Both the position numbers and the translations under genes were made by a program. From Candidatus Shapirobacteria bacterium (GTDB taxonomy: Bacteria; Patescibacteriota; Microgenomatia; UBA12405): a stretch of DNA of 64,000 nt. Positions within the stretch are counted from its first letter, which is position 1. The number at the start of each line of letters is the position of its first letter. The notes under the pieces were generated by a model. It made no database searches, was not told the DNA's origin, and saw nothing but the letters and a program-made list of their open reading frames with translations. The stretch spans positions 2,270 to 66,269 of the forward strand of contig JAGORQ010000003.1 of the NCBI GenBank assembly GCA_018062705.1, written 5' to 3'. Positions 513 through 47,878 of this stretch are shown piece by piece.

Positions 513-616
513 TACTTAATGCTCGTAAGTTTACCTACCGTTAGGCAAGATTTAGGGCTCGGACTGTTACCGTAGCGGCACTGTCAGGGAATTCCACCCT
601 AGTTCAAAATAAAATT

Positions 617-1030
617 TTATTTCAAAATAAAATTAAAATAAATATAACTTCCCACCACTACTAGAATAATTAGTTTAAACACCCACCCTGCCAACAACTT
701 TCGACTATTATTTTCCTTCCATACCTCACTAGGAATCTCATCTTTTTGATAACCAGTCAAAACTAAAGTTGGTATACTCTCATTCCAATCATTACACTCA
801 ACACACTTCCAGCTATTTCTAACCAAATCTAACTCTTTTCTTCCTTCAACATAAGTCATCCCCGACTCACAATGTTTGCATGATAGTTCAAAGTGCTTCT
901 TCCCACATGTTCTACAAACTGAGTACCCTCCCGCCAAAGTTACAAATACATAATATTTGTTGCCACAATCACAAAATACTTCAAACATATCACTTTTTTT
1001 ATTTAAAAATTCTTGAAAATCATTGTTCAT
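617..1030 (-). CDS. Cys-rich (zinc-ribbon-like) protein with C-terminal TM helix, hypothetical
   Basis: Multiple CxxC pairs (CDCG, CRTCG, CKHCE, CVEC) and hydrophobic C-terminus. Confidence 0.45.
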   Translation of the reverse strand: MNNDFQEFLNKKSDMFEVFCDCGNKYYVFVTLAGGYSVCRTCGKKHFELSCKHCESGMTYVEGRKELDLVRNSWKCVECNDWNESIPTLVLTGYQKDEIPSEVWKENNSRKLLAGWVFKLIILVVVGSYIYFNFILK

Positions 1031-1040
1031 ATTTACTGGT

Positions 1041-1538
1041 TTACCTCGCCGTAGCTTCCTCGCGAAGGCGGGCCATCATAAATAAATAATCTGACAATCT
1101 ATTGATATATATAAGTATGTTTGGATCTATTTGTTGGCTTTGGCTCAATGTCACCAATCGTCTCTCACATCGTCGACACACTGTCCTCACCCAATTAATT
1201 TCCCTCGCCTCTTTATTTTTAAAAATCAAAAAACCAGTGATTGGACCTAAGTTTTTTTCTAACTCTTGCGTTTCTTTCTCCAGATTGAAGATTGAAGTTT
1301 GAAGATTGAAGATCGAGCCATAGGCGATCACCCCCATTATTTCATAAAGGTCTTTCTGAATTTTACTTAGCACTGTGGACTTAGCACTTAGCACCCCCAA
1401 TGATGCCTGCAACTCGTCTAATGTTCCTACCGCCTCCAGTAGTGGCGAATCCTTCACCACTACTTTCCCGCTCCATCTACTCTTCCCATCATCGCCAGTT
1501 TTAGTAGTAATACTCATGAGCATTTCGAATAACCACAA
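1041..1538 (-). CDS. ATP:cob(I)alamin adenosyltransferase, PduO-type
   Basis: N-terminal ITTKTGDDG...LEAVGTLDEL motif typical of PduO-type adenosyltransferases; adjacent to B12-dependent nrdJ; carries in-frame heptamer insert (SIFNLQTSIFNL). Confidence 0.65.
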   Translation of the reverse strand: MWLFEMLMSITTKTGDDGKSRWSGKVVVKDSPLLEAVGTLDELQASLGVLSAKSTVLSKIQKDLYEIMGVIAYGSIFNLQTSIFNLEKETQELEKNLGPITGFLIFKNKEAREINWVRTVCRRCERRLVTLSQSQQIDPNILIYINRLSDYLFMMARLREEATAR

Positions 1539-4093
1539 AATGAATTACTGCATTTAAAACACCCTTCTTCGGCATACAATGGACTACCACAATCCGGGCA
1601 CGAGCTAAATTTACTTTCACTTTCTGCCTGTTTAGATCTAATTTCCGATAATATATTTTTCTGTACGGGCGCAATGCTTTGCGCCCCTACTTCAATTGGA
1701 TTTTTCTCCTCTTCAAACATTGCCAATTGTTCACCTCTCGATACTTCGAGTAATGACTTACCCACTGCATCAAACATGCTCAAAATTGCATTTGGCCCCG
1801 TCCCCACTCTCTGGCCACAAGATATTCCTACCAATTCGTCAGCCAACTCATCCAAACTGGCTCCATATTTTAATGCCAGTGATGCCAATCGACCCGTCAC
1901 TTCAGCCGAGCCGGCCATATAACCACCCGACTTCCCTAGAGTTACAAAAATTTCTACCGGACCATCCCCTTCCTCAAAAAATACTGAGGTATACACCTTC
2001 CCTACATCAGAAGTTTTTCTAAATCTCACCCCCCTGGCCGCCTCCGGCGTCTTCTTCTTGCTAGCCAACTTCAAACTTACTTCTAGTTTCTCGTTTCTCG
2101 TTTCTAGTTTCTTTTCTGTGACCGGTGCAATCACTTCTTTCTCTCTACTTCCACTTCGATAAATTGTGATCCCCTTGGTCCCTAGAGAATAGGCCAATCT
2201 ATAGGCAGTTCGCACATCTTCGACTGTCGCTTCTTTGGGAAAATTAATTGTTTTACTGACTGCATTATCTGTGAATTCCTGAAATGCGGCCTGAAGCTTT
2301 ACATGCCATTCCGGCGTAATCTCCAAAGCCGTCCTAAATATATTTTTTATATCATCTGGCAACTCCTCCATTCCTGACAGCTTACCTCCATTTTTGACAA
2401 TCTTGTCCAAGAGTTGATCATTATATAAATCACGTCTTTTCAATTCTTCTACAAACACTGGGTTCATCATATATAGAGTTTTGCCTTCCACCGTATTCTT
2501 TTGAAAACCCAAACTAAATGCCGGTTCCACTCCACTACTACAGTCGGCAATCATGCTGATTGTTCCGGTTGGAGCAATCGTTGTTAATGCCATATTGCGT
2601 GGTCGGTAATCAGTTCCGAGAAACACCGACACCTCCCAAGCGGGAAACACCCCCCTAGTTTTGGCCAATTCAACAGTTTCTTTTCTTGACTCTTCATTAA
2701 TAAATTTCATCAATTTTCTCGCCCATACAATTCCTTCTTCTGAATCGTAACGAACTCCCAATTTAAACAACATATCTGCAAATCCCATCACTCCCAACCC
2801 AATCCTACGGGTTTTCGACACCATATCCCGGATTTTTTGCACCGGAAACTCGTTTACCTCCACCACATTATCCAAAAAATGAATTGCCTCGTGTACCACC
2901 CTCGCCAACTCATCCCAGTCAATATCTCTTCGTATTATTCCAGTTTCTAGTTTCTCGTTTCTAGTTTCTGTTTCCAAATCTTTCTCTATAATAAATTTGG
3001 AAACATTTATCGACCCCAAATTACACGCATCATACGGCAACAATGGTTGCTCCCCACACGGATTGGTAGCTTCAATTCTACCCAACTTTGGCACTGGGTT
3101 ACTGTTAGCATCATTCATTCTGTCAATAAATACCAACCCCGGATCACCATATTGCCAAGCCAGTCGAGTTACCAAATTAAATACTTTGTAGGCGTTCAAC
3201 TTCATCACTACCTTACAATTTCGTGGATTTATCAATTCATAACCTTCACCCTCATTTGTGGCCTTAGCCCAATCATAAAGTTTTACAATCCATTGTTCAA
3301 TTGTCCTCAATCGCAAATCAACATCTCGCAATCCTTCTGCTTCCCTAATTTTTTCCACTACTTCTTCGGGAAAGGACTCGTCGCTCACAAATCTTTTATC
3401 TGGCTCAATTTGATCCATAAACTTGTTAGTTATCGCCAGAGAAATATTGAAGTTAGTCAACGAATATTCATCCAGTTTTACTACCGCAAATCTCAATACA
3501 TCTGGATGATCTACCGACAACATGCCCATATTTGCCCCCCTACGTACTCCACCTTGCTTGATCTGACTAGTTACATCATTGTAGGCCTGCATAAAACTTA
3601 CCGGCCCAACAGTCGTCCCACCCGATGTGGCAATATAGTCTCCACTTGGTCTCAATCGAGTGAACGAAAACCCAGTGCCTCCACCACTTTTATGGATTTT
3701 GGCCATATCCGTCATTGTTTCCAGTATCGATTCCATCGAATCATCAATTGGCAACACAAAACAAGCTGATAATTGTTGATGTTTTTTGCCAGCATTCACC
3801 AAACAAGGTGTGTTTGGAAAAAATTTTTGCTCGGCCATCATTTCATAAAACACTTTAGCCTGCTGCTCTATATTTGATTGAAGATTGAAGTTTGTAGATT
3901 GAAAATTCTCATCGCCCTTGGCTATGTTACTCGCCACTCTCCAAAAAATATCCTTGGCAGTTTCCACCACCTTCCCCGACTCGTCCTTCATTGCATATCT
4001 TGTTTCGGCAATATACTTTGCGTTTGGCGACAGCATCGGTTCTTTTAATTCAGCACCGTTAATCTGATTATTTCTTTGGTTTAAATCGTTCAT
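1514..4093 (-). CDS. nrdJ: ribonucleotide reductase, class II (adenosylcobalamin-dependent)
   Basis: Motifs LSACFVLPIDDS, NPCGEQPL..YDACNLGSIN, C-terminal CxxC zinc finger; downstream of nrdR. Confidence 0.9.
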   Translation of the reverse strand: MNDLNQRNNQINGAELKEPMLSPNAKYIAETRYAMKDESGKVVETAKDIFWRVASNIAKGDENFQSTNFNLQSNIEQQAKVFYEMMAEQKFFPNTPCLVNAGKKHQQLSACFVLPIDDSMESILETMTDMAKIHKSGGGTGFSFTRLRPSGDYIATSGGTTVGPVSFMQAYNDVTSQIKQGGVRRGANMGMLSVDHPDVLRFAVVKLDEYSLTNFNISLAITNKFMDQIEPDKRFVSDESFPEEVVEKIREAEGLRDVDLRLRTIEQWIVKLYDWAKATNEGEGYELINPRNCKVVMKLNAYKVFNLVTRLAWQYGDPGLVFIDRMNDANSNPVPKLGRIEATNPCGEQPLLPYDACNLGSINVSKFIIEKDLETETRNEKLETGIIRRDIDWDELARVVHEAIHFLDNVVEVNEFPVQKIRDMVSKTRRIGLGVMGFADMLFKLGVRYDSEEGIVWARKLMKFINEESRKETVELAKTRGVFPAWEVSVFLGTDYRPRNMALTTIAPTGTISMIADCSSGVEPAFSLGFQKNTVEGKTLYMMNPVFVEELKRRDLYNDQLLDKIVKNGGKLSGMEELPDDIKNIFRTALEITPEWHVKLQAAFQEFTDNAVSKTINFPKEATVEDVRTAYRLAYSLGTKGITIYRSGSREKEVIAPVTEKKLETRNEKLEVSLKLASKKKTPEAARGVRFRKTSDVGKVYTSVFFEEGDGPVEIFVTLGKSGGYMAGSAEVTGRLASLALKYGASLDELADELVGISCGQRVGTGPNAILSMFDAVGKSLLEVSRGEQLAMFEEEKNPIEVGAQSIAPVQKNILSEIRSKQAESESKFSSCPDCGSPLYAEEGCFKCSNSFCGYSKCS
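1663..1690. repeat. 28-bp palindromic element (family A) in-frame in nrdJ
   Basis: See 20530-20557. Confidence 0.8.
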
Positions 4094-4593: not shown

Positions 4594-4643
4594 TTTTGTC
4601 TGTCATTCCCGCGAAAGCGGGAATCTATATAAAAATTAACAAT

Positions 4644-8201: not shown

Positions 8202-8963
8202 ATGAGCAAAACCTCACAAGAAAACAAAAAGAAAAAGCTTGTTGTGGAAGATCAAGTAATTGATCACAAGGCTTCAGAATCCGTCGAAGAAACTGGAGTA
8301 AATCCCGAAATCGTTAATGAGGAGACCGTTTCCGCCGAAGGCGGATCCGCCTCTGGCGGAAAAAGAACTGCCAAAGTTCGCGGCAAAAAATATCAAACCG
8401 CCAAGAAAAAGGTTGACGTAGCCAAATTTTACCCCATCAAAGACGCTGCCAAATTGGTCAAAGAAACTTCTTTCTCCAAATTTGAAGGCAAAATCGAAGC
8501 TCACATCACTGTGACCGAAGAGGGTAACTTAGGTGAAATTGTCTTCCCCCACCTCGAAACAGCCAGCAAAAAAATCGTCATCTTAAACGATGCTATTTTG
8601 GCTGAAATCAAAGACGGTAAAGTCGATTTTGATATTCTTATCGCCACTCCCGCCACCATGCCCAAGCTTTTACCTTTTGCCAAGGTTCTTGGTCCCAAAG
8701 GTTTAATGCCCAATCCCAAGAGTGGCACCTTAACCGACAAACCCGAAGAAGCTGTCAAAAAGCTGTCAGTAGCCAAAACCATGATCAAAACCGAGAAAAA
8801 AGCTCCGGTTGTTCATATCATTGTTGGAAAAGTTTCCCAACCGGTCGAAGAGCTCAGTGCCAATGTGGCTGAACTCATCAAGGTTGTCAAACCAATTCGT
8901 ATCAAAAAATTGGCTCTTTGTGCCACCATGGGCCCATCAGTCAAAGTCGAGGTCCTAAAATAA
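8202..8963 (+). CDS. rplA: 50S ribosomal protein L1 (with about 65-aa Lys/Glu-rich N-terminal extension)
   Basis: Conserved L1 core from about residue 70 (FEGKIEAHITV...KVLGPKGLMPNPKSGT). Confidence 0.9.
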   Translation: MSKTSQENKKKKLVVEDQVIDHKASESVEETGVNPEIVNEETVSAEGGSASGGKRTAKVRGKKYQTAKKKVDVAKFYPIKDAAKLVKETSFSKFEGKIEAHITVTEEGNLGEIVFPHLETASKKIVILNDAILAEIKDGKVDFDILIATPATMPKLLPFAKVLGPKGLMPNPKSGTLTDKPEEAVKKLSVAKTMIKTEKKAPVVHIIVGKVSQPVEELSANVAELIKVVKPIRIKKLALCATMGPSVKVEVLK

Positions 8964-8966
8964 CAA

Positions 8967-8990
8967 GTCATTCCTGCGAAGGCAGGAATC
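8967..8990. repeat. GC hairpin element GTCATTCCTGCGAAGGCAGGAATC (family B copy)
   Basis: Near-identical copies at 4602-4625 and 45557-45580, variant at 1056-1075. Confidence 0.7.
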
Positions 8991-9006
8991 TATTTAAATT
9001 TTCAAT

Positions 9007-20296: not shown

Positions 20297-21904
20297 TTAT
20301 CCGCGACACTTTTTTACAAACTCCACAAATATCGGATGTGGAGCCAACGGTCGGCTCTTATACTCCGGATGAAACTGTGTCCCCACAAAAAAGGGATGAT
20401 TTTTTAATTCAATTGCCTCCACCAATTTTCCATCTGGACTGGTGCCACTAATCACCATCCCCGCTTTTTCCAACTGCTCTCTAAATTCATTGTTCACCTC
20501 ATATCGATGACGATGCCTTTCTTGCACCTGTACGGGCGCAATGCATTGCGCCCCTACATCCATATATATATATTCCAAAATACTGCCTTTTTTAACTTTA
20601 CATGGCCAACCCCCCAATCTAATTGTCCCACCATATTGATGCGCTTCCAAATATTTTTTTTGATCCGGCATCACATGCACTACCGGATATTTCGTCTTCG
20701 GATCCACCTCTTCCGAATTAGCATTTTTCAATCCCAGCACGTTTCGACTAAATTCAATCACTGCCATTTGCATTCCAAAACAAAGACCCAAATAAGGAAT
20801 CTTGTTCTCCCTAGCAATCCGCACCGTTTCAATAATTCCCTCCGTCCCCCGGCTCCCCCATCCTTGTGGCACCACAATGCCACTATATTTTTTCAACATT
20901 TCTTCATTAACTTCTTCAGAGCAAATCGAATCAATCTGTAAATTTACACTATTCGCAATTCCCCCATGCTTCAACGCCTCCATTACCGACACATACACAT
21001 CAGCATGCTTCCCTCCCCCATGATTCACATATTTTCCCACCAACGCTATTCGTACGGGCGCAATGCTTTGCGCCCCTACAATTAATTTTTTCCACTCTCC
21101 TAAATTAGCCTTTCTATTTTTTATTTTAAAATGCTTAAATATTTTTTTTAATATTTTTTGTTTTTCCAAAACTAACGGTACTTCATAAATTGATTTACAG
21201 TCTGCATCCTCAAAAATTGCATCATTTTCCAAAAAACATCTTTTGGCCAAAGTCTCCCTCCTTGGTTCATCCAGTTCAATTTCGCTTCGGGTTATCAAAA
21301 TATCCGGAATAATACCCGTTGACCTCAATTCGGCAATCGCCTGCTGAGTTGGTTTAGTTTTTAGCTCACCCACATTTTTCAAAAACGGCACGTAAGTCAC
21401 CATCACATACATCGCCTTGCGCTCCCGCCCCACCTCTCGTGCCGCATACAAAAATGGCAAGTTTTCTATATCCCCAGTGCTTCCCCCAATCTCTACGACG
21501 ACAAAATCAAAACCACTTTCTAATTCATAAAATCTCCTCTTCACCTCATTTGGCACATCCGGAATCATTTCCACATCTCGTCCCTCATATTTAAACGCCC
21601 GCTCGTTATTAATAATCGTCTGATAAATTTTCCCAGAGGTAATATTATTGTCTTTGGAAAAATTTTGATTCAAAAATCTCTCGTAATTTCCCAAATCCTG
21701 GTCAATTTCCCCGCCATCTTCGGTCACAAAAGTTTCTCCGTGTTCCTGCGGTCGCATTGTCCCGGCATCCACATTCAAATACGGATCAATTTTTATCATG
21801 TTCACCTTAAAACCAGATGCTTTCAAAAGCATTCCTATAGATGATGCCACAATTCCTTTACCCAAACCACTCACTACCCCCCCAATTACAAAAATATATT
21901 TCAT
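20297..21904 (-). CDS. pyrG: CTP synthase
   Basis: N-terminal MKYIFVIGGVVSGLGKG and C-terminal GATase domain; contains two in-frame 28-bp palindromic inserts. Confidence 0.95.
   Translation of the reverse strand: MKYIFVIGGVVSGLGKGIVASSIGMLLKASGFKVNMIKIDPYLNVDAGTMRPQEHGETFVTEDGGEIDQDLGNYERFLNQNFSKDNNITSGKIYQTIINNERAFKYEGRDVEMIPDVPNEVKRRFYELESGFDFVVVEIGGSTGDIENLPFLYAAREVGRERKAMYVMVTYVPFLKNVGELKTKPTQQAIAELRSTGIIPDILITRSEIELDEPRRETLAKRCFLENDAIFEDADCKSIYEVPLVLEKQKILKKIFKHFKIKNRKANLGEWKKLIVGAQSIAPVRIALVGKYVNHGGGKHADVYVSVMEALKHGGIANSVNLQIDSICSEEVNEEMLKKYSGIVVPQGWGSRGTEGIIETVRIARENKIPYLGLCFGMQMAVIEFSRNVLGLKNANSEEVDPKTKYPVVHVMPDQKKYLEAHQYGGTIRLGGWPCKVKKGSILEYIYMDVGAQCIAPVQVQERHRHRYEVNNEFREQLEKAGMVISGTSPDGKLVEAIELKNHPFFVGTQFHPEYKSRPLAPHPIFVEFVKKCRG
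20530..20557. repeat. 28-bp palindromic element GTACGGGCGCAATGCATTGCGCCCCTAC (family A) in-frame in pyrG
   Basis: Copies at 1663-1690 (nrdJ) and 21052-21079 (pyrG); all encode VGAQ[S/C]IAPV. Confidence 0.8.
21052..21079. repeat. 28-bp palindromic element (family A) in-frame in pyrG
   Basis: See 20530-20557. Confidence 0.8.
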
Positions 21905-40886: not shown

Positions 40887-42089
40887 ATGCACAACCGATC
40901 TGATAGGCGAAGCCTATTCTTCGTTCTTTCCGTCTTTTCTTTAGTTATTATCTCCACCTATTTTGTTATCCTCTTCGCCCGAGGCTATCGTCTCGAATTC
41001 AAAAAAGACGGCCCCAGTCTCCAGGTTACCGGCATTCTTTCTTTTACTTCCAAGCCCAAAGGTGGTTCTGTTTACCTAAACGATCGCTTAATCACCGCCA
41101 CCGATGACACCCTTAACCTACCCCCCGGTAGTTACACCGTCAAAATTACTAAGGATGGCTATACCACTTGGCAAAAAACCTACCAAGTCAAAAAGGAGGT
41201 CGTCTACCAAACCGATGCCGAACTCTTCCGCTCCGCCCCAGAGCTTCGACCACTTACACTCAGTGGTGCCATCAACCCTGTCTTGAGCCCAGATGGTTCA
41301 AAGGTTATTTTTGCGGTAGCCTCTGCCTCTGCCACAAAAGACAACGGACTCTATCTACTTGAAACTTCCGACAATCTCATCCCCCTTGCCAAAACCACCA
41401 CCCGCCAAATTGCACCCAACTTTACTGGAACCGATTGGGCAAAGGCCACATTCACTTTTTCACCAGATTCGCGCCAAGTAGTAGCCACTTTCAAAAACCA
41501 ACTTAATTATCTACTAAATATAGATACGACAATTACTGAGAAAAATCTAACTGATATCACGAGCCAGCTACCTCAAATTAACAAAAGTTGGTCTCAAGAC
41601 GAACTTCAAATAATAAAAAGTCGATTAAACCGACTTCCTCCAGAAATTAGCACCCTGGTCGCTACCGATTCTGCCCGAGACATTGCCATCAACCAAAACG
41701 ACGACAAAGTTTTTTATCTTGCCTCCAAAGATGGAACAATCGACTCACAAACCACTCCACCACCAGCCCAAAGCTCCCAAACCCAAGACCGTCATGTGGC
41801 CAAAAACAATTTTTATGTCTACGACATCAAAGATGACACCAATTTTGCCATCGGCTCAAGTGAAACAGTTCGTAATTTAAGCTGGCTTCCCTACACCAAC
41901 AACCTTATTTACGTTGAAGACAACAGTATAAAAATAGTTGACTACGACAACACCAATAAAAATGTGATTTACGCAGGAAAGTTTAGTGCCGACTTAGTCT
42001 TTCCTTGGTCTGATGGTAGCCGAATAATCACCCTTACCTCTGCCTATACAGGAGCCACAAACAATCTCTATTCGATTAGTTTAAAGTAA
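40887..42089 (+). CDS. PEGA-domain membrane protein with beta-propeller-like C-terminus
   Basis: N-terminal TM, PEGA-like GSVYLNDRLI..PGSYTVKITKDGY, TolB-like SPDGSKV repeats. Confidence 0.45.
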   Translation: MHNRSDRRSLFFVLSVFSLVIISTYFVILFARGYRLEFKKDGPSLQVTGILSFTSKPKGGSVYLNDRLITATDDTLNLPPGSYTVKITKDGYTTWQKTYQVKKEVVYQTDAELFRSAPELRPLTLSGAINPVLSPDGSKVIFAVASASATKDNGLYLLETSDNLIPLAKTTTRQIAPNFTGTDWAKATFTFSPDSRQVVATFKNQLNYLLNIDTTITEKNLTDITSQLPQINKSWSQDELQIIKSRLNRLPPEISTLVATDSARDIAINQNDDKVFYLASKDGTIDSQTTPPPAQSSQTQDRHVAKNNFYVYDIKDDTNFAIGSSETVRNLSWLPYTNNLIYVEDNSIKIVDYDNTNKNVIYAGKFSADLVFPWSDGSRIITLTSAYTGATNNLYSISLK

Positions 42090-42096
42090 AAATAAG

Positions 42097-42444
42097 CTAA
42101 TTTTTACAAACTTCCATCTGTACCCCAGCAACCTGGCTTAATATATCGTATGTCTGTTGTTCAGTTAAGTCACCTGAATTTAATCTACCTTCGAGTTGAC
42201 TAACTTTTATGTTTGCCTCGTCTATTGTCAGGCAAGATTTATATACCCCATTTTCAATTTCAGCATAAGGTGCTTCCAAGGCAGGCAACTCGACCTGTTG
42301 GTTTGTCACTGTCTCCCCCAAAACCACAGGAGTAGAAACTACTACAGATTGACCCGCCTCGACAAAGCGAAGTGGAATCAACACCATAATGGCCACCACA
42401 AAACTAACAATCAGAGTTCGGCTATTTTGATTAAATTCATTCAT
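42097..42444 (-). CDS. hypothetical membrane-anchored protein
   Basis: ORF with N-terminal TM. Confidence 0.4.
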   Translation of the reverse strand: MNEFNQNSRTLIVSFVVAIMVLIPLRFVEAGQSVVVSTPVVLGETVTNQQVELPALEAPYAEIENGVYKSCLTIDEANIKVSQLEGRLNSGDLTEQQTYDILSQVAGVQMEVCKN

Positions 42445-42706
42445 AATTAATAATAGTCACCCATTTACAATTAAGTCAAGAACAAGACAAAACTAGTCTA
42501 TTTTTCAAGCAAAAGTATAAATAAAATCTATTAGCAGGAGTTAACTATTAATGCTAACACTTTTCGACACAATGGAATCAAATAACTACATATAACAAAC
42601 TTGTATATCAAATAGTCCCCATCGCACTTTAATTATTCTTCCTATATAATCATCTCAACTCTCAAAAAGTTCCCGACATTTGAGAATTTAACAAACTAAT
42701 TGTTTA

Positions 42707-42899
42707 CCGGCGGACAAGTCCCCTTCTTACCAAAACGGGCGTTGCCCGCCGTAGTCCCGCAATCGCGGGACGTAGGCGGGGACCCGCCTGCAAAAGCTGT
42801 CGCTTTAGCAACTGCGAGCAGGTTGGCGCAATTTCAGCCAGAGGCCGATCGGCCGGCCGAGGCTAGCGCAATAGAAATATGCCTAAATAGTCGTATATT
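42707..42899 (+). ncRNA. GC-rich structured element (candidate ncRNA / long tRNA leader) immediately 5' of tRNA-Pro
   Basis: Local GC far above window average; nested palindromes CCCGCAATCGCGGG, GGCGGGGACCCGCC, long imperfect hairpin CCGCC-GTAG-TCCCGC..GCGGGA-CGTAG-GCGGG. Confidence 0.35.
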
Positions 42900-42976
42900 C
42901 GGGGATTGGCGCAATTGGCTAGCGCGCACGGTTCGGGATCGTGAGGTTGCTGGTTCGAATCCAGTATCCCCGACCA
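42900..42976 (+). tRNA. tRNA-Pro (anticodon CGG), CCA encoded
   Basis: Manual cloverleaf: acceptor CGGGGAT/ATCCCCG, D-stem GCGC/GCGC, anticodon loop TTCGGGA, T-arm GCTGG-TTCGAAT-CCAGT. Confidence 0.85.
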
Positions 42977-43100
42977 GTCGGATACTGGATGAGAAGTTTA
43001 TCCTGAGCGAAGTCGAAGGAAATCCAGTATCCCCGACCAGTCGGATACTGGATGAGAAGTTTATCCTGAGCGAAGTCGAAGGAAATCCAGTATCCCCGAC
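42961..43100 (+). repeat. 2.2 tandem copies of a 63-bp unit beginning with the tRNA-Pro 3' end (CCAGTATCCCCGACCA...)
   Basis: Units 42961-43023, 43024-43086, partial 43087-43100 identical. Confidence 0.9.
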
Positions 43101-43254
43101 AAAAATAATTAATAATTAACAATTAATAATTACTAATTAAGAACAACTGTCCATTCTCTGATGATTGAGCAATCCAATCATCACAAGTTTTTTGTATTGA
43201 TAGTTTTCAACTACTAATTATTAATTCGTAATTAGTAATTAGTAGTTAATGTTC

Positions 43255-43326
43255 GTCCCTATAGTTCAATGGATAGAACGGAGGTTTCCTAAACCTTAAA
43301 TGGCAGTTCGATTCTGCCTGGGGATA
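43255..43326 (+). tRNA. tRNA-Arg (anticodon CCT), CCA not encoded
   Basis: Manual cloverleaf: acceptor GTCCCTA/TGGGGAT, D-stem GTTC/GAAC, anticodon loop TTCCTAA, T-arm GGCAG-TTCGATT-CTGCC. Confidence 0.8.
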
Positions 43327-43480
43327 CATTTACAGAATCTAATTGCCCCAGGTACGACCTGTTTCGCGAGTTCACGAGCGAAGTTCCTGGTGGGGATACT
43401 TTTTACAGTTCGACTTGTTTCGACGAACCATTTCATTTTTTTTGTGAGTCGAAGTTCTGCCTGAGGATACTTTTTTAACA
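43314..43480 (+). repeat. three spaced (about 71 bp) copies of the tRNA-Arg 3' end (CTGCCTGGGGATAC / TCCTGGTGGGGATAC / CTGCCTGAGGATAC + T-run)
   Basis: Degenerate direct repeats of T-arm/acceptor 3' half downstream of the tRNA. Confidence 0.7.
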
Positions 43481-43978
43481 AACCCTCTAGTTTCACGGAC
43501 AAGTTTTTCTCCTCAATTTCCTTTTACCGCATAATCTATAGATGAATTGTCTGATTAACCGCACATATCTGCACAATTTCCGCAACATTTTTTCCTTATC
43601 TAATAAAAAAATTATAAGTCAATTAAGATATCATTAACCGCATTTAAAAGAAAATTTTCTTATACCTGTATATATCTTTTATACTACTAATATGGTCAGT
43701 ATAACCGTACACATGACATTATGACAGTTATTTCCTAGTTACATTTTTTCACACTCGATTATTTTTCCGCAATTTTTATATGCCTTCACCCACTATCTTT
43801 ATGAAGTGAATCAATTAGAATCAATGTATTACATCAAGCTACGACGAATTATTAGACATTTTTAATGTTTAATATCAACTTGTCCCACGCGGTTAATTAA
43901 ACATTTTATGCGTATTTAGACATAAAATATTCTACTAGAAAATGTTTATCACTCACACAGCTTAATTGCTAAAACTCC

Positions 43979-45289: not shown

Positions 45290-47878
45290 CTATCTAACTA
45301 CAAAGTTGACCATCCTGCCTGGCACATAAATTTCCTTAACCACCTCTTTTCCCTCCAACCACTGCGTCATCTTCGGCAACTCCTTTGCCAGTTTTATTAT
45401 TTCTTCTTGGCTTTTAACTCGTAACTCGTCACTGTTAACTGATAACTGTTCTCTGACTTTTCCATTCACCGCCACCATAATGGTAACTGACTCCTCCGCC
45501 AGATACTTCTCATCCGCCACCGGCCACTCTTGATCATGAATCGATGAAAAAATCTCGTCATTCCCGCGAAAGCGGGAATCCATTCTTTGCCACATTTCTT
45601 CCGCCGTGTACGGTGCCATTGGTGCCATTAATTTCAAAAAAGTCTCTAAATCATTTCTCGAAACCATTTCTTTGTTATCTTCAAAATCATTTAATAATTT
45701 CATCAATTTTGCCACTACGGTATTGTATCCAAAACTTGCCATATCTTCGGTAATACTTTTTATGGCTTTATTAATGATTATCAGTAGTTCTTTATTACTG
45801 TCAGCAGACTTATTATTTAATTGCTCATTAGTAATTCGTAATTCGTAATTCGTAATTGATTTTTCCACTCTATCCAAAAATCGTTTCACCCCCATGAGAG
45901 TCTTCTCATTCCACGCCATCGTTCCATCAAATGGTCCCATAAACATCAAATACATCCTCACTACATCGACCCCGTACTTATCCGCTACCACCTCTGGCAC
46001 CACCACGTTCCCCTTCGACTTACTCATCCGATTATTGTCTGGTCCCAAAATTACCCCATGGGAAATTCTTTTAAAATATGGCTCGGGTAACTCTTTGGGT
46101 ACTGCGCCAATGTCGTGCAGAAACTGGTAAATAAACCTCGAATACAAAAGATGCAGTGTGTTATGTTCATCGCCACCTATGTAGACATCCACCGGACCCC
46201 AATATTTAATCATCTTTTGGGATGCCAGCTCTTTATTGTTGTGCGGATCCATATATCTTAAAAAGTACCAGTCACTCCCCGCCCAATTTGGCATCGTATC
46301 AGTTTCCCGCACTGCATCACCGTCACAAACTGGACATTTGCAATTCACAAACTCTGGAATTTTTGACAATGGTGACTTGCCATCATCCGTCGGCTCGTAA
46401 GCCTCCACCTCTGGCAACACAATCGGCAACTGTTCTTCCGGCACCGGAATCCACCCCACATTTTTCAATAAATTATTTTTTTCGTCTTCATTTTGGATTT
46501 TAGAATTTAGAATTTGGGATTTTTGATTTTCTGCACATTTATTACAGAAAATCATGGGTATCGGCTCACCCCAATAATGCTGTCTAGAAAAAATCCAATC
46601 TCTTAAGTGATATGACACCACTCTCTTCCCCCAACCCTTTTCTTCAAAATAATCCATCGTCTTCTGCATCGCCTTCGTAAAGTCCATTCCATTTAAAAAA
46701 TCAGAATTCACCATTACACCCTTATCACCCGAATGAACTTGAAAACATTCTTTTTCAACATCCCTCTCTTCTCCATCAACTCCATCTACCACTTTAATAA
46801 TTGGGATTCCAAACTTTTTGGCAAAATCCCAATCTCTCTGGTCATGACCTGGACAACCTTGAACTGCGCCAGTCCCAAAAGTCGCCAACACAAAATCAGT
46901 TATCCAAATTGGAATCTCTTTACCATCAACATGATTTATTGCATAAAGCCCAGAAAACACTCCTGTCTTTTCTTTTCCTAATTCAGTTCTTTCAATCTCG
47001 CTCTTTCGCCTTGCTACTGATATATACTTTTTTATTTCTTCAATCTGTTTCTGATCAACACCAAACTTCCCCGACACGATATCCTGCACAAACTTGTGTT
47101 CTGGTGCCACTACCAAAAAAGTCGCCCCAAAATTTACCGGTGTTGTTGTAAAAATAGCCAGTTTCTCACTCGTGCCCTTAACTTGGAAATCGATATTTAT
47201 CCCCTCTTTTCTCCCAATCCAGTTTATTTGTGCTTGTTTCACTTTCTCAATAAAATCCGTCTTCGCAAGTCCCGACACCAATTTATCTGCATAATCAGTT
47301 ATTTTTACTATCCACTGGCTGATGTTTCTTCTCGATACTTCAGAATGACACCGCTCGCACTTCCCATCGACAACTTCTTCATTGGCCAAACCAATTTTAC
47401 AACTTGGACACCAGTTAATCGGCATCTCCTCTTTGTAGGCCAAACCCTTTTTAAATAATTGAACAAAAATCCACTGTGTCCATTTATAATAGTCTGGGCT
47501 AGTCGTATTTACCTCCCTCTCCCAATCAAACGAAAACGCCAACCGTTTCATCTGACTTCTAAACATATCGGTATTTTCCTTGGTCACTTCTTGCGGTTTC
47601 CGCTTCATCTTTATCGCATAGTTTTCCGTTGGCAAACCAAAGGCATCCCAACCCATCGGAAACATCACCTCATACCCCTGCATTCGCTTAAATCTGGCAT
47701 AGACATCTCCACCAGTAAACGAAAAAGCATGACCTACATGGAGACCCGATCCTGAGGGATAAGGGAACTCATTTAGCACATAAAACTTCCCTTTGCTAGC
47801 TACTCTTTTACTATTTTTTTTGCCCCACTCAGTAATCCATTTTTTCTCGATTTCTAAAAACTTTTTATCTTCGTTCAT
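45290..47878 (-). CDS. leuS: leucine--tRNA ligase
   Basis: HVGHAFSF (HIGH) and KMSKSKGN motifs, editing domain; three in-frame heptamer inserts and one in-frame family-B hairpin (SRFRGNDE). Confidence 0.95.
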   Translation of the reverse strand: MNEDKKFLEIEKKWITEWGKKNSKRVASKGKFYVLNEFPYPSGSGLHVGHAFSFTGGDVYARFKRMQGYEVMFPMGWDAFGLPTENYAIKMKRKPQEVTKENTDMFRSQMKRLAFSFDWEREVNTTSPDYYKWTQWIFVQLFKKGLAYKEEMPINWCPSCKIGLANEEVVDGKCERCHSEVSRRNISQWIVKITDYADKLVSGLAKTDFIEKVKQAQINWIGRKEGINIDFQVKGTSEKLAIFTTTPVNFGATFLVVAPEHKFVQDIVSGKFGVDQKQIEEIKKYISVARRKSEIERTELGKEKTGVFSGLYAINHVDGKEIPIWITDFVLATFGTGAVQGCPGHDQRDWDFAKKFGIPIIKVVDGVDGEERDVEKECFQVHSGDKGVMVNSDFLNGMDFTKAMQKTMDYFEEKGWGKRVVSYHLRDWIFSRQHYWGEPIPMIFCNKCAENQKSQILNSKIQNEDEKNNLLKNVGWIPVPEEQLPIVLPEVEAYEPTDDGKSPLSKIPEFVNCKCPVCDGDAVRETDTMPNWAGSDWYFLRYMDPHNNKELASQKMIKYWGPVDVYIGGDEHNTLHLLYSRFIYQFLHDIGAVPKELPEPYFKRISHGVILGPDNNRMSKSKGNVVVPEVVADKYGVDVVRMYLMFMGPFDGTMAWNEKTLMGVKRFLDRVEKSITNYELRITNEQLNNKSADSNKELLIIINKAIKSITEDMASFGYNTVVAKLMKLLNDFEDNKEMVSRNDLETFLKLMAPMAPYTAEEMWQRMDSRFRGNDEIFSSIHDQEWPVADEKYLAEESVTIMVAVNGKVREQLSVNSDELRVKSQEEIIKLAKELPKMTQWLEGKEVVKEIYVPGRMVNFVVR

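What the first reader, a model, noticed from the sequence alone, without database searches (positions are those of the whole stretch)
42707..42899. GC-rich, palindrome-dense 190-nt element directly upstream of tRNA-Pro
In an AT-rich window this stretch is conspicuously GC-rich and packed with inverted repeats (CCCGCAATCGCGGG, GGCGGGGACCCGCC, GCCGATCGGCCGGCCGAGGC). It also has a long hairpin with a symmetric internal loop. It abuts the tRNA with no intervening promoter-like AT-rich gap. The track's protein call here (42700-43119) runs through the tRNA and repeats and is certainly spurious. The element could be a structured ncRNA co-transcribed with tRNA-Pro, a remnant of foreign high-GC DNA, or part of the tRNA-linked repeat system. 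I could not match tmRNA, RNase P RNA, SRP RNA or 6S RNA signatures.
Basis: seen in the sequence. Interest (0 to 1): 0.6.

Follow-up and report, generated by a model that had tools for sequence, protein, structure and literature searches.

The report
Scrambled tRNA-Pro leader with GC hairpins
The GC-rich stretch in front of the proline tRNA gene is real, but it looks like a fast-changing patchwork of pieces of that tRNA gene and small GC-rich hairpins, an upstream counterpart of the "tRNA-linked repeats" known from E. coli, and not like a conserved new RNA gene.

Summary
Positions 42707-42869 form a 163-nt core of 66% GC in a 40% GC window. It is the strongest GC peak in the window, is packed with perfect hairpins, and folds better than shuffled copies on both strands. 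The window comes from a Candidatus Shapirobacteria (CPR) genome assembled from a metagenome. No Rfam family matches even at E<=10, there is no phage or plasmid match, and no protein homologue covers the translated element. In ten independent syntenic Shapirobacteria loci the promoter box (cGTTTATAATA) and tRNA-Pro(CGG) are conserved. The DNA between them varies: 10-25 nt in five loci, 36-145 nt of partly GC-rich insert in three, and a GC-rich insert of unknown length in one contig that breaks off inside it. The last contig ends before this region. The window's insert contains an ordered partial copy of its own tRNA-Pro D-arm, split by a 27-nt palindrome. It shares a 20-nt block with one relative and a 36-column block with another, both at the same position. 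Downstream, the tRNA 3' end is repeated three times, as in E. coli tRNA-linked repeats. Structure is not conserved and there is no strand-specific RNA signal. Best reading: a transcribed but probably functionless 5' leader built by duplication and decay of the tRNA unit plus palindrome growth. Modest interest.

The parts
42645..42650 (+). TATAAT -10 box of the tRNA-Pro promoter, orthologous to the conserved 'cGTTTATAATA' box of the relatives
   Evidence: These are the only invariant upstream columns in the nine-locus alignment A1. Where there is no insert, the relatives carry this box 10-25 nt before tRNA-Pro.
42651..42706 (+). AT-rich promoter-proximal leader with a small hairpin (TCTCAAA 42660-42666 / TTTGAGA 42679-42685)
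   Evidence: Sequence; fold. The resemblance to the 'leader A' of L008/L011/L016 is by eye only and was not tested statistically.
42708..42751 (+). H1: long hairpin with a 6-bp closing stem CGGCGG/CCGCCG and symmetric internal loops. Its left arm is an imperfect inverted copy (12/15) of its right arm.
   Evidence: -19.1 kcal/mol, z = -2.8. The closing stem has no counterpart in L008.
42735..42754 (+). Block ACGGGCGTTGCCCGCCGTAG, shared 19/20 with the L008 leader at the same position after the promoter
   Evidence: p<=0.002 against shuffles of the element. The sub-motif CTTGCCCGCC also occurs in the downstream repeats of L009 (E=0.1).
42754..42771 (+). H2: perfect 7-bp hairpin GTCCCGC-AATC-GCGGGAC, flanked by direct GTAG...GTAG
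   Evidence: L008 has a different small hairpin (CTTC-AGC-GAAG) at this place. The two viral-contig matches to the 18-mer lie in unrelated contexts.
42772..42791 (+). H3: 8-bp hairpin GUAGGCGG-GGAC-CCGCCUGC. Its core CGGGGACCCGCC resembles the L016 leader hairpin CGGGGCCCGCC.
   Evidence: H2+H3 z = -5.3. The L016 similarity is not significant on its own (p=0.11).
42803..42822 (+). Spacer-like segment GCTTTAGCAACTGCGAGCAGG. It aligns with the 'leader B' segment (…CTTTAGYCRAGCAT) that precedes a tRNA-Pro 5' end in L016, L009 and inside the L011 downstream repeat.
   Evidence: Alignment A2. L011 repeat versus L016 leader gives nhmmer E=0.03. The window segment itself is only weakly similar.
42823..42833 (+). 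TTGGCGCAATT: an exact copy of tRNA-Pro positions 7-17 (5' side of the D-arm)
   Evidence: D11; nine shared 7-mers with its own tRNA-Pro, p=0.0005.
42834..42860 (+). 27-nt GC-rich insert that splits the D-arm copy. It contains the overlapping perfect palindromes GGCCGATCGGCC and TCGGCCGGCCGA. The block ATTTCAGCCA…GATC…GGC.GAGGC is shared with the L009 leader.
   Evidence: 36-column alignment, p<=0.002. Positions 42834-42848 are a 2-mismatch inverted variant of the hairpin TCCGCCTCTGGCGGA found in L009 and at window 8346.
42861..42869 (+). GGCTAGCGC: a copy of tRNA-Pro positions 18-25 (D-loop and 3' side of the D-stem), including the extra C specific to this tRNA allele
42870..42899 (+). AT-rich 30-nt proximal leader directly before the tRNA. 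AATAGTCGTATATT resembles the L009 segment TTAGTCGAGTAT that precedes a CGGGG.
   Evidence: The promoter-like match TAGAAA-16-TATATT ends at the tRNA's first base and so cannot serve it.
42900..42976 (+). tRNA-Pro(CGG) with encoded CCA
   Evidence: It is 100% identical to the tRNA-Pro of L009 and L011.
42958..43100 (+). tRNA-linked repeats: the 17-nt 3' end of tRNA-Pro (AATCCAGTATCCCCGAC) occurs three times at 63-nt spacing, with two 100% identical units. Each unit also carries an inverted copy (GGATACTGGAT) of that end.
   Evidence: D1, D5, I12-I15. Homologous to the L011 repeat (E=0.002-0.003).
43159..43193 (+). Intrinsic-terminator-like hairpin plus T-run that would close the tRNA-Pro transcription unit
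   Evidence: it is the only plus-strand terminator-like site in 42000-43800.

Best explanation
The element is the upstream (5') counterpart of tRNA-linked repeats. It is a non-coding, lineage-variable insert between the conserved tRNA-Pro promoter and tRNA-Pro(CGG). It is assembled from fragments of the tRNA-Pro transcription unit (D-arm positions 7-17 and 18-25, plus spacer-like pieces) and several GC-rich (quasi-)palindromes.

Shown: its composition, its position downstream of the orthologous promoter, its patchy and size-variable presence in relatives, its partial identity to the host's own tRNA allele, and module sharing between leader inserts and downstream repeats in related genomes.

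Inferred origin: the [spacer + tRNA-Pro] unit was tandemly duplicated. Redundant copies then decayed by deletion. A copy truncated at its 3' side and lying upstream gives leader debris; a copy truncated at its 5' side and lying downstream gives a classical tRNA-linked repeat. Hairpins were added or extended by template switching, or by insertion of the short GC palindromes that also occur elsewhere in this genome.

Inferred mode of action: the element is transcribed as part of a roughly 250-nt 5' leader and cut off by RNase P. It has no sequence-specific function of its own; at most its stable hairpins alter leader stability or processing kinetics.
For: 1. Orthologous promoter. TATAAT at 42645-42650 aligns with the invariant box of eight relatives. 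No terminator-like site lies between it and the tRNA, and one follows the repeats at 43159.
2. Variability. L001, L002/L003, L007, L010, L011/L012 and L013 have only 10-25 nt between box and tRNA. L016 has a 36-nt GC insert, L006 about 50 nt, L009 about 145 nt. L008 has a GC-rich insert cut off by the contig end.
3. Self-derived pieces. An 11-mer and a 9-mer of the window's own tRNA-Pro lie in the correct order, split by 27 nt (p=0.0005). The L006 and L009 leaders likewise match their own tRNA-Pro alleles (p about 0.04 each) and not each other's.
4. Shared blocks at the same position with L008 (19/20) and L009 (36 columns), each p<=0.002.
5. The downstream repeats are real and homologous between the window and L011 (E=0.002). 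The interior of the L011 repeat matches the sequence that precedes an intact tRNA in L016 (E=0.03), as expected if repeats are internally deleted [spacer + tRNA] units.
6. No RNA-specific signal. The minus strand folds better (-84.7 vs -77.3 kcal/mol) and has more G-U pairs, 4 against 1 on the plus strand. The core has GC skew -0.01, against -0.31 for the window, as expected for DNA palindromes.
7. No Rfam match at E<=10. No homologue of the translated element among 5.8 billion or 1.84 billion proteins.
Against: The H1-H3 half (42707-42791) has no detectable similarity to tRNA-Pro, and its source is unknown. No relative was found that still carries two intact tandem tRNA-Pro genes, so the duplication step is inferred. 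Similarities to L008 and L009 are short; in a position-blind nhmmer search of all held DNA they reach only E=1.7 and 4.6, so their significance rests on the shared position. The nearest relatives are distant (61-63% identity in the neighbouring PEGA protein), so gain or loss cannot be timed. Very stable hairpins, and retention of two blocks in other lineages, could reflect selection. Transcription was not observed.
Confidence: 0.55

Rival explanations
1. A functional structured leader RNA. The element is co-transcribed with tRNA-Pro, released by RNase P, and acts as a stable small RNA (sponge or protein binder), like the tRNA spacer 3'ETS-leuZ or the rrA/rrB/rrF tRNA-linked-repeat RNAs of E. 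coli. Alternatively it acts in cis to tune tRNA-Pro maturation.
For: It lies downstream of the conserved promoter with no intervening terminator. Its hairpins are very stable (H2+H3 z = -5.3). In AT-rich genomes GC-rich islands often mark structured RNAs (general knowledge). Two blocks are retained at the same place in L008 and L009. In E. coli some repeat- and spacer-derived RNAs are functional (PMC8144298).
Against: The insert is absent from five of the nine relatives that show this region, and differs in length and sequence in the others. The predicted structure is not conserved: the H1 closing stem is missing in L008, and L009 folds the shared block differently. There is no strand asymmetry in pairing, no Rfam hit, and no covariation could be measured.
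Confidence: 0.2
2. A nest of small mobile GC-rich palindromic elements, like REP elements or Rickettsia palindromic elements, that landed in a permissive tRNA leader. On this view the tRNA-like pieces are incidental or are target duplications.
For: The window contains about 17 perfect GC-rich hairpins where about 2.5 are expected, including repeated families with conserved flanks. Family A (GTA-CGGGCGCAATGCWTTGCGCCCC-TAC) sits in frame in ribonucleotide reductase and twice in CTP synthase. Family B sits in a variable loop of LeuRS that is absent from the orthologues. The hairpin TCCGCCTCTGGCGGA is in the L009 tRNA-Pro leader but at 8346 (in an N-terminal extension of the ribosomal protein L1 gene) in the window. 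H2 and H3 begin with GTAG, as REP sequences do (from memory of the REP/RAYT literature).
Against: None of H1, H2 or H3 recurs elsewhere in the 64-kb window. H2 shares only a 6-bp stem with Family B, which is not significant. No transposase of the REP-associated type was looked for or seen. This model does not explain the ordered D-arm copy matching the host's tRNA allele.
Confidence: 0.15
3. A scar of one or more integrative elements (phage or genomic island) that used tRNA-Pro as attachment site, or a remnant of foreign high-GC DNA.
For: tRNA genes are classical integration sites (general knowledge). tRNA segments are duplicated on both sides. Distribution is patchy. The tRNA-Pro allele is 100% identical to those of L009 and L011 although the neighbouring proteins are only about 55-63% identical, which hints at exchange of the cassette.
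Against: No integrase or cargo genes lie nearby: the syntenic genes are MurB, WecG, MreB, PEGA, a small protein, M16 peptidase and LeuRS. The units are 60-190 nt. The upstream duplicate is the D-arm, not the 3' segment that integrases normally duplicate. There is no similarity to phage or plasmid collections. The only viral contig with the tRNA 3'-end 17-mer carries a complete phage tRNA-Pro(TGG), not an attachment site.
Confidence: 0.07
4. An assembly artefact: a chimeric join in a metagenome-assembled genome.
For: The source is a metagenome-assembled genome. Four of the short-read contigs fetched from relatives break exactly in this region: L007, L010 and L012 inside the tRNA-Pro 5' half and L008 inside its insert.
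Against: Homologous blocks occur at the same position in independent assemblies from other samples (L008, L009). The element contains the host's own tRNA allele. The flanks are collinear with the relatives.
Confidence: 0.03

Closest known systems
tRNA-linked repeats (TLRs) of Escherichia coli (Egan & Landy 1978; Rudd 1999; as summarised in PMC8144298)
   Same: These are short non-coding units inside tRNA transcription units that re-use a piece of the adjacent tRNA gene. They are variable in number, mostly of unknown function, and presumably co-transcribed and processed. The window's downstream repeats (42958-43100, and 43312-43474 after tRNA-Arg) fit the definition directly: 17 nt and about 16 nt of the tRNA 3' end are repeated.
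   Different: The element under review lies upstream of the tRNA, not downstream. It copies the 5' D-arm rather than the 3' end, is interrupted by GC palindromes, and is in a CPR bacterium. Upstream counterparts are not part of the E. coli definition.
tRNA spacer-derived small RNAs (for example 3'ETS-leuZ of E. coli)
   Same: A by-product of pre-tRNA processing, transcribed with the tRNA and released by the processing nucleases.
   Different: 3'ETS-leuZ is conserved and has demonstrated base-pairing targets. Here there is no conservation, no target and no expression data.
REP/REPIN elements and Rickettsia palindromic elements (RPEs)
   Same: Short GC-rich imperfect palindromes in an otherwise AT-rich or compact genome. 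H2 and H3 start with GTAG. The same genome has palindromes inserted in frame in essential genes, as RPEs are.
   Different: The hairpins of this element are single-copy in the 64-kb window. No associated transposase is known here. REPs are typically present in many dispersed copies.
Attachment-site scars of tRNA-targeting integrative elements
   Same: Duplicated tRNA segments next to a tRNA gene, with patchy distribution.
   Different: There is no integrase, and the units are tiny. The duplicated piece on this side is an internal 5' segment rather than the 3' portion.

Membership tests
E. coli-type tRNA-linked repeat (TLR) | [quoted passage not shown] | tested here: not met
   The element lies upstream of tRNA-Pro (42707-42899 versus tRNA 42900-42976). 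The separate repeats at 42958-43100 do meet this feature.
E. coli-type tRNA-linked repeat (TLR) | The last 18-19 nt of each unit are identical to the 3' end of the preceding tRNA (PMC8144298) | tested here: not met
   No 7-mer of the tRNA 3' end or of the repeat unit occurs in the element. Instead it copies tRNA positions 7-17 and 18-25. The downstream units carry 17 identical nt (D5).
Any described RNA family (Rfam 15, including tmRNA, RNase P, SRP, 6S, riboswitches, ribozymes) | Covariance-model score at or near the family's gathering threshold | tested here: not met
   No hit inside 42707-42899 at gathering score or at E<=10 with lax filters. Nothing other than tRNAs at gathering score in the five relatives' loci scanned, which include all four with leader inserts. 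ARAGORN finds no tmRNA or extra tRNA.
Conserved structured ncRNA (generic) | Presence and covariation-supported structure in related genomes | tested here: not met
   Absent in L001, L002/L003, L007, L010, L011 and L013. Inserts of different length and fold in L006, L009 and L016. Only two short blocks are shared. There are too few sequences for covariation statistics.
REP elements (associated with RAYT transposases) | GTAG-type head followed by an imperfect GC-rich palindrome | tested here: inconclusive
   H2 and H3 each follow a GTAG (42751-42754, 42772-42775). However, GTAG is also a common tRNA 5' motif and also occurs in the L006 and L008 leaders.
REP elements (associated with RAYT transposases) | Many dispersed copies in intergenic regions, and a RAYT gene in the genome | tested here: not met
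   No second copy of H1, H2 or H3 in the 64-kb window at up to 3 substitutions. The presence of a RAYT gene was not tested; only 64 kb of the genome is available.
Integrative-element attachment scar | Direct repeats of the tRNA 3' segment bounding DNA that encodes, or once encoded, an integrase | tested here: not met
   No integrase among the neighbouring genes or in the syntenic gene tables. The repeat units are 63 nt. No phage or plasmid similarity.
Protein-coding gene (the ORF called at 42700-43119) | Homologues or domains covering the ORF, and no overlap with RNA genes | tested here: not met
   It overlaps tRNA-Pro. It has no Pfam domain. There is no word-sharing homologue for residues 1-67. 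The phmmer hits have their best matches in or reaching the tRNA-derived residues (about 60-100), and none covers residues 1-40.

The most novel reading that the evidence does not exclude
In Shapirobacteria the tRNA-Pro(CGG) gene is embedded in a modular cassette. Upstream lie tRNA-fragment and hairpin modules; downstream lie 3'-end repeats that fold as acceptor/T-arm-like minihelices. On this reading the cassette is exchanged between lineages by recombination at the identical tRNA, and its modules are functional. They might yield leader- or trailer-derived small RNAs, or act as decoys for tRNA-processing or tRNA-targeting enzymes. That would extend tRNA-linked repeats from an E. coli curiosity to a widespread two-sided functional class, possibly seeded by a CPR family of GC-rich palindromic mobile elements that also insert in frame into essential genes.
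Probability: 0.12. Interest if true: 0.6.

Novelty: new variant of a known kind. Interest (0 to 1): 0.3.

Why it matters
If the reading is right, the stretch is not a new RNA gene, and its called ORF should be removed from annotation. It does show that tRNA-linked repeats, described in E. coli in 1978 and still unexplained, also occur in an ultra-small CPR genome, and that they have an upstream mirror image. The comparison of ten loci gives a concrete origin model (duplication of the tRNA unit, decay from either end, growth of palindromes) that closer genomes could test. The locus also marks a hypervariable spot that breaks short-read assemblies of these organisms. It points to GC-rich palindromes as an active source of sequence change in an AT-rich, reduced genome.

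Tried and rejected
- Rfam at gathering score and at E<=10: nothing.
- By-eye comparison with RNase P conserved regions (GGACAAGUCC resembles CR-I) and with SRP RNA domain IV: the required P4 partner and the GNRA loop are absent, so both were rejected (reasoning, with no model hit).
- Minus-strand riboswitch or 5' UTR for the 115-aa gene: rejected. That gene has its own good promoter at 42479-42450, between it and the element.
- Coding potential: none of the six frames is convincing. Protein searches with the translated element found nothing.
- Phage and plasmid blastn: no match.
- Viral-contig scans: the H2 18-mer gave two chance hits. The shared 18-mer of block 42737-42754 gave none. The tRNA 3'-end 17-mer hit only a phage tRNA-Pro(TGG) gene.
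- Permuted, split or intron-bearing tRNA readings of the D-arm copy: no matching acceptor 3' strand, anticodon arm or T-arm could be found.
- Smith-Waterman alignment of the element against tRNA plus repeats: no extended homology beyond the D-arm pieces.
- Element versus the window's own downstream repeat unit: no shared 7-mer.
- Exact look-ups of the window's proteins in the contig index failed, so the source genome itself could not be extended.
- L014 and L015 ended before the tRNA.
- Literature searches for CPR palindromic insertions or tRNA integration in Patescibacteria returned nothing relevant.
Full report
OBSERVATION

The window is AT-rich (39.6% GC) with a strong negative GC skew throughout. 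Positions 42707-42869 form a 163-nt core of 65.6% GC. The spacer to its left has 27.5% GC, and a 30-nt stretch of 23% GC (42870-42899) separates the core from tRNA-Pro(CGG) at 42900-42976. This is the highest 120-nt GC peak in the window, at 0.675.

The plus strand folds into five units:
- H2 (42754-42771), a 7-bp stem with loop AAUC.
- H3 (42772-42791), an 8-bp stem with loop GGAC.
- A weak H4.
- H5 (42826-42868).

Minimum free energy z-scores are -3.2 on the plus strand and -4.0 on the minus strand; H2+H3 alone score -5.3. Two perfect hairpins with stems of at least 6 bp occur in 200 nt, where block shuffles give 0.1. The one error is the claim that no AT-rich gap precedes the tRNA.

The ORF called at 42700-43119 is spurious. 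It reads through the tRNA and the repeats. It has no Pfam domain. Among 1.84 billion representative proteins, apart from itself all 60 other hits have their best match in or reaching the tRNA-derived residues (about 60-100), and none covers residues 1-40. The translated element alone has no word-sharing homologue among 5.8 billion proteins.

WHAT IT IS NOT

Rfam gives only the two tRNAs and a distant AdoCbl riboswitch at gathering score. Nothing falls inside the element even at E<=10 on either strand. ARAGORN finds no tmRNA. No phage or plasmid record matches.

A role in the minus-strand 5' UTR of the 115-aa gene is unlikely. That gene has a 10/12 promoter match at 42479-42450, between it and the element.

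The element is single-copy in the window.

SOURCE AND RELATIVES

The neighbouring PEGA-domain protein is 100% identical to an NCBI entry from a Candidatus Shapirobacteria bacterium (contig of 72,489 bp). Its nearest homologues are only 61-63% identical, so no close relative exists in the collections.

I fetched twelve syntenic loci. After merging duplicate assemblies and dropping two contigs that end before the tRNA, they represent ten independent loci. All share the gene order PEGA (+), small gene (-), AT-rich spacer, tRNA-Pro(CGG), tRNA-Arg(CCT). Nine of the loci, including the window, align on a promoter box 'cGTTTATAATA', which provides the only invariant upstream columns. In the window this box is TATAAT at 42645-42650 (alignment A1).

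The distance from box to tRNA varies:
- 10-25 nt in L001, L002/L003, L007, L010, L011/L012 and L013.
- About 58 nt, including a 36-nt GC-rich insert, in L016.
- About 50 nt in L006.
- About 145 nt in L009.
- 249 nt in the window.
- L008 has a GC-rich insert that is cut off by the contig end.

The insert therefore lies between the orthologous promoter and the tRNA. No plus-strand terminator-like site occurs before 43159. It is thus very probably part of the transcribed 5' leader; this is an inference, since no expression data exist.

ANATOMY BY COMPARISON

(a) The element contains TTGGCGCAATT (42823-42833) and GGCTAGCGC (42861-42869). These are positions 7-17 and 18-25 of the adjacent tRNA-Pro, in order, including this allele's extra D-loop C. 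They are separated by a 27-nt insert built of overlapping perfect palindromes. The leader shares nine 7-mers with its own tRNA, against 1.0 expected (p=0.0005). The L006 and L009 leaders likewise contain pieces of their own tRNA-Pro alleles: TAGCTC…GTAGAGCG in L006, and CGGGGATT…CTAGCGC in L009 (p about 0.04 each). They do not contain pieces of the other lineage's allele.

(b) Block 42735-42754 (ACGGGCGTTGCCCGCCGTAG) matches L008 at 19 of 20 positions, at the same place after the promoter. The block ATTTCAGCCA…GATC…GGC.GAGGC (42831-42864) aligns over 36 columns with the L009 leader. Each is significant at p<=0.002 against shuffles of the element. In a position-blind nhmmer search of all held DNA these matches reach only E=1.7 and 4.6, so their weight depends on the shared position.

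(c) Downstream, the 17-nt 3' end of tRNA-Pro occurs three times at 63-nt spacing, with two 100% identical units. The 3' end of tRNA-Arg also occurs three times, at about 71-nt spacing. This is exactly the defining property of the E. coli tRNA-linked repeats (PMC8144298). L006, L009 and L011 also carry such repeats, whereas L001, L002, L013 and L016 do not.

(d) The window's repeat unit is homologous to that of L011 (E=0.002-0.003). The interior of the L011 repeat (…GATCGAGACTTTAGTCGAGCAT|CGG|aaaATCCAGTATCCCCGAC) matches the sequence that directly precedes an intact tRNA-Pro in L016 (E=0.03). It also resembles the sequence preceding a truncated CGGGGATT in the L009 leader. The L011 repeat therefore looks like a [spacer + tRNA-Pro] unit with an internal deletion. 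The leader inserts look like the same kind of unit truncated from the other side.

(e) GC motifs are shared across the two contexts. CTTGCCCGCC occurs in the L008 leader and in the L009 downstream repeats. CCGCCTCTGG occurs in both the L009 leader and the L009 repeats. These matches are only suggestive (E about 0.1-0.7).

STRUCTURE VERSUS SEQUENCE

Where sequence is shared, the fold is not:
- L008 has no partner for the H1 closing stem.
- L008 carries a different small hairpin where the window has H2.
- L009 folds the shared 3' block into different hairpins.

The core folds better as minus strand (-84.7 kcal/mol, 4 G-U pairs) than as plus strand (-77.3 kcal/mol, 1 G-U pair). Its GC skew is -0.01, against -0.31 for the window. 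This is what DNA-level palindromes give. It is not the asymmetry expected of an RNA selected on the tRNA strand. With two or three partial homologues, no covariation test has any power.

GENOMIC BACKGROUND

The window contains about 17 distinct perfect GC-rich hairpins, against about 2.5 expected. They include repeated families with conserved flanks:
- Family A, GTA-CGGGCGCAATGC[T/A]TTGCGCCCC-TAC, occurs three times. Each copy is in frame and encodes VGAQ[S/C]IAPV: once in a class II ribonucleotide reductase and twice in CTP synthase.
- Family B, GTC-ATTCCCGCGAAAGCGGGAATC, occurs in an intergenic site and in a LeuRS loop (DSRFRGND). The orthologues lack this sequence at a loop that varies in length.
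- The hairpin TCCGCCTCTGGCGGA lies at 8346 in an N-terminal extension of the L1 gene and, identically, in the L009 tRNA-Pro leader. A 2-mismatch inverted variant lies inside the element at 42834-42848.

These genomes therefore generate or spread short GC palindromes, which plausibly supplied the hairpins of the element. None of H1-H3 recurs in the window, however.

MOST LIKELY EXPLANATION (confidence 0.55)

The element is a lineage-variable 5' counterpart of tRNA-linked repeats. It is debris of duplicated [spacer + tRNA-Pro] units, enlarged by GC palindromes. It sits in the transcribed leader and is removed by RNase P, without a sequence-specific role.

Shown: composition, position relative to the conserved promoter, variability among relatives, self-derived tRNA pieces, and module sharing with downstream repeats. 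Inferred: transcription, the duplication-decay route, and the lack of function.

RIVALS
- A functional leader-derived RNA (0.2).
- A nest of REP- or RPE-like mobile palindromes as the primary cause (0.15).
- An integrative-element scar or foreign DNA (0.07).
- An assembly artefact (0.03).

Two observations keep the more interesting readings alive. First, the window's tRNA-Pro is 100% identical to those of L009 and L011 and 96% to that of L016, but only 79-83% to those of L001, L002, L006 and L013, while the PEGA proteins are all 55-61% identical. This hints that the cassette may be exchanged between lineages. Second, four contigs from relatives break inside the tRNA-Pro 5' half or the insert. 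That is consistent with repeats or with strain-level heterogeneity at this locus.

COMPARISON WITH KNOWN SYSTEMS

The downstream repeats qualify as tRNA-linked repeats. The element itself fails both defining features, since it lies upstream of the tRNA and copies the D-arm rather than the 3' end. I therefore file it as a new variant that probably arises in the same way, and not as a member of that family.

It is not a member of any Rfam family. It does not meet the copy-number criterion for REP elements within the available 64 kb. It lacks the integrase context of an attachment-site scar.

VERDICT

The feature is real, and the quoted sequence details are correctly described, apart from the claim that it abuts the tRNA. 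It is best explained as non-conserved, repeat-derived leader sequence. Interest is modest (0.3).

Noticed in passing
window 1664-1689, 20531-20556, 21053-21078: A 28-bp GC-rich palindrome, GTA-CGGGCGCAATGC[T/A]TTGCGCCCC-TAC, occurs three times. Each copy is in frame and in the same orientation, encoding VGAQ[S/C]IAPV. One copy is inside a class II ribonucleotide reductase-like ORF (1514..4093) and two are inside a CTP synthase-like ORF (20297..21904). This resembles the in-frame insertions of Rickettsia palindromic elements. Protein identities were judged from the sequence only.
   Followed up: partly
window 4602-4625, 45557-45580, about 8966-8992: A second palindrome family, GTC-ATTCCCGCGAAAGCGGGAATC. 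One copy is intergenic. One lies inside LeuRS and encodes DSRFRGND in a variable-length loop; three orthologues lack this sequence there. A third copy carries compensated stem changes (ATTCCTGCGAAGGCAGGAAT). LeuRS also carries an extra 'NYELRITNE' segment that resembles the AT-rich aattacgaatta-type repeats seen in the intergenic DNA at 43101-43250.
   Followed up: partly
window 8331-8360; L009 4889-4907: Tandem hairpins TCCGCC-GAA-GGCGGA and TCCGCC-TCT-GGCGGA encode SAEGGSASGG in an N-terminal extension of a ribosomal protein L1-like ORF (8202..8963). The second hairpin is identical to one in the tRNA-Pro leader of a different Shapirobacteria genome (nhmmer E=0.007).
   Followed up: partly
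window 42958-43100 and 43312-43474: Classical tRNA-linked repeats. The tRNA-Pro 3' end (17 nt) occurs three times at 63-nt spacing, with two 100% identical units, each also containing an inverted copy of that end. The tRNA-Arg 3' end (about 16 nt) occurs three times at about 71-nt spacing. A motif GAGCGAAG / GAGTCGAAG precedes the repeated tRNA end at both tRNAs. Homologous repeats occur after tRNA-Pro in L006, L009 and L011.
   Followed up: partly
window 43490-43800; also L001, L002, L006, L009, L011, L013, L016 downstream of tRNA-Arg: A field of repeated (t/c)tCCGCA(t/a) / ttaCCGCAt motifs in the AT-rich region between tRNA-Arg and the M16 peptidase gene, conserved in all relatives. It could be an array of protein-binding sites (DnaA-box-like). 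The cumulative GC skew does not turn here, so it is probably not the replication origin.
   Followed up: no
window 1-64000: Very strong negative GC skew (about -0.1 to -0.5 per kb, mean -0.31) over the whole window, regardless of gene orientation.
   Followed up: no
window 545-623 (-): AdoCbl-II riboswitch aptamer above Rfam's gathering score (41.3 bits). It lies downstream of, rather than in front of, the B12-dependent ribonucleotide reductase-like gene on the same strand, so it probably controls the next gene.
   Followed up: no
L007, L008, L010, L012 (contig ends): Four independent short-read contigs of related Shapirobacteria end inside the 5' half of tRNA-Pro or inside its leader insert. 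This suggests that the locus is repeated or heterogeneous in natural populations.
   Followed up: no
L017 8715-8792 and 10174-10270: An IMG/VR viral contig encodes its own tRNA-Pro(TGG), with the same 3' end (AATCCAGTATCCCCGACCA) as the Shapirobacteria tRNA-Pro(CGG), plus an unusually long tRNA-Pro(AGG) call. It may be a phage of CPR bacteria.
   Followed up: no
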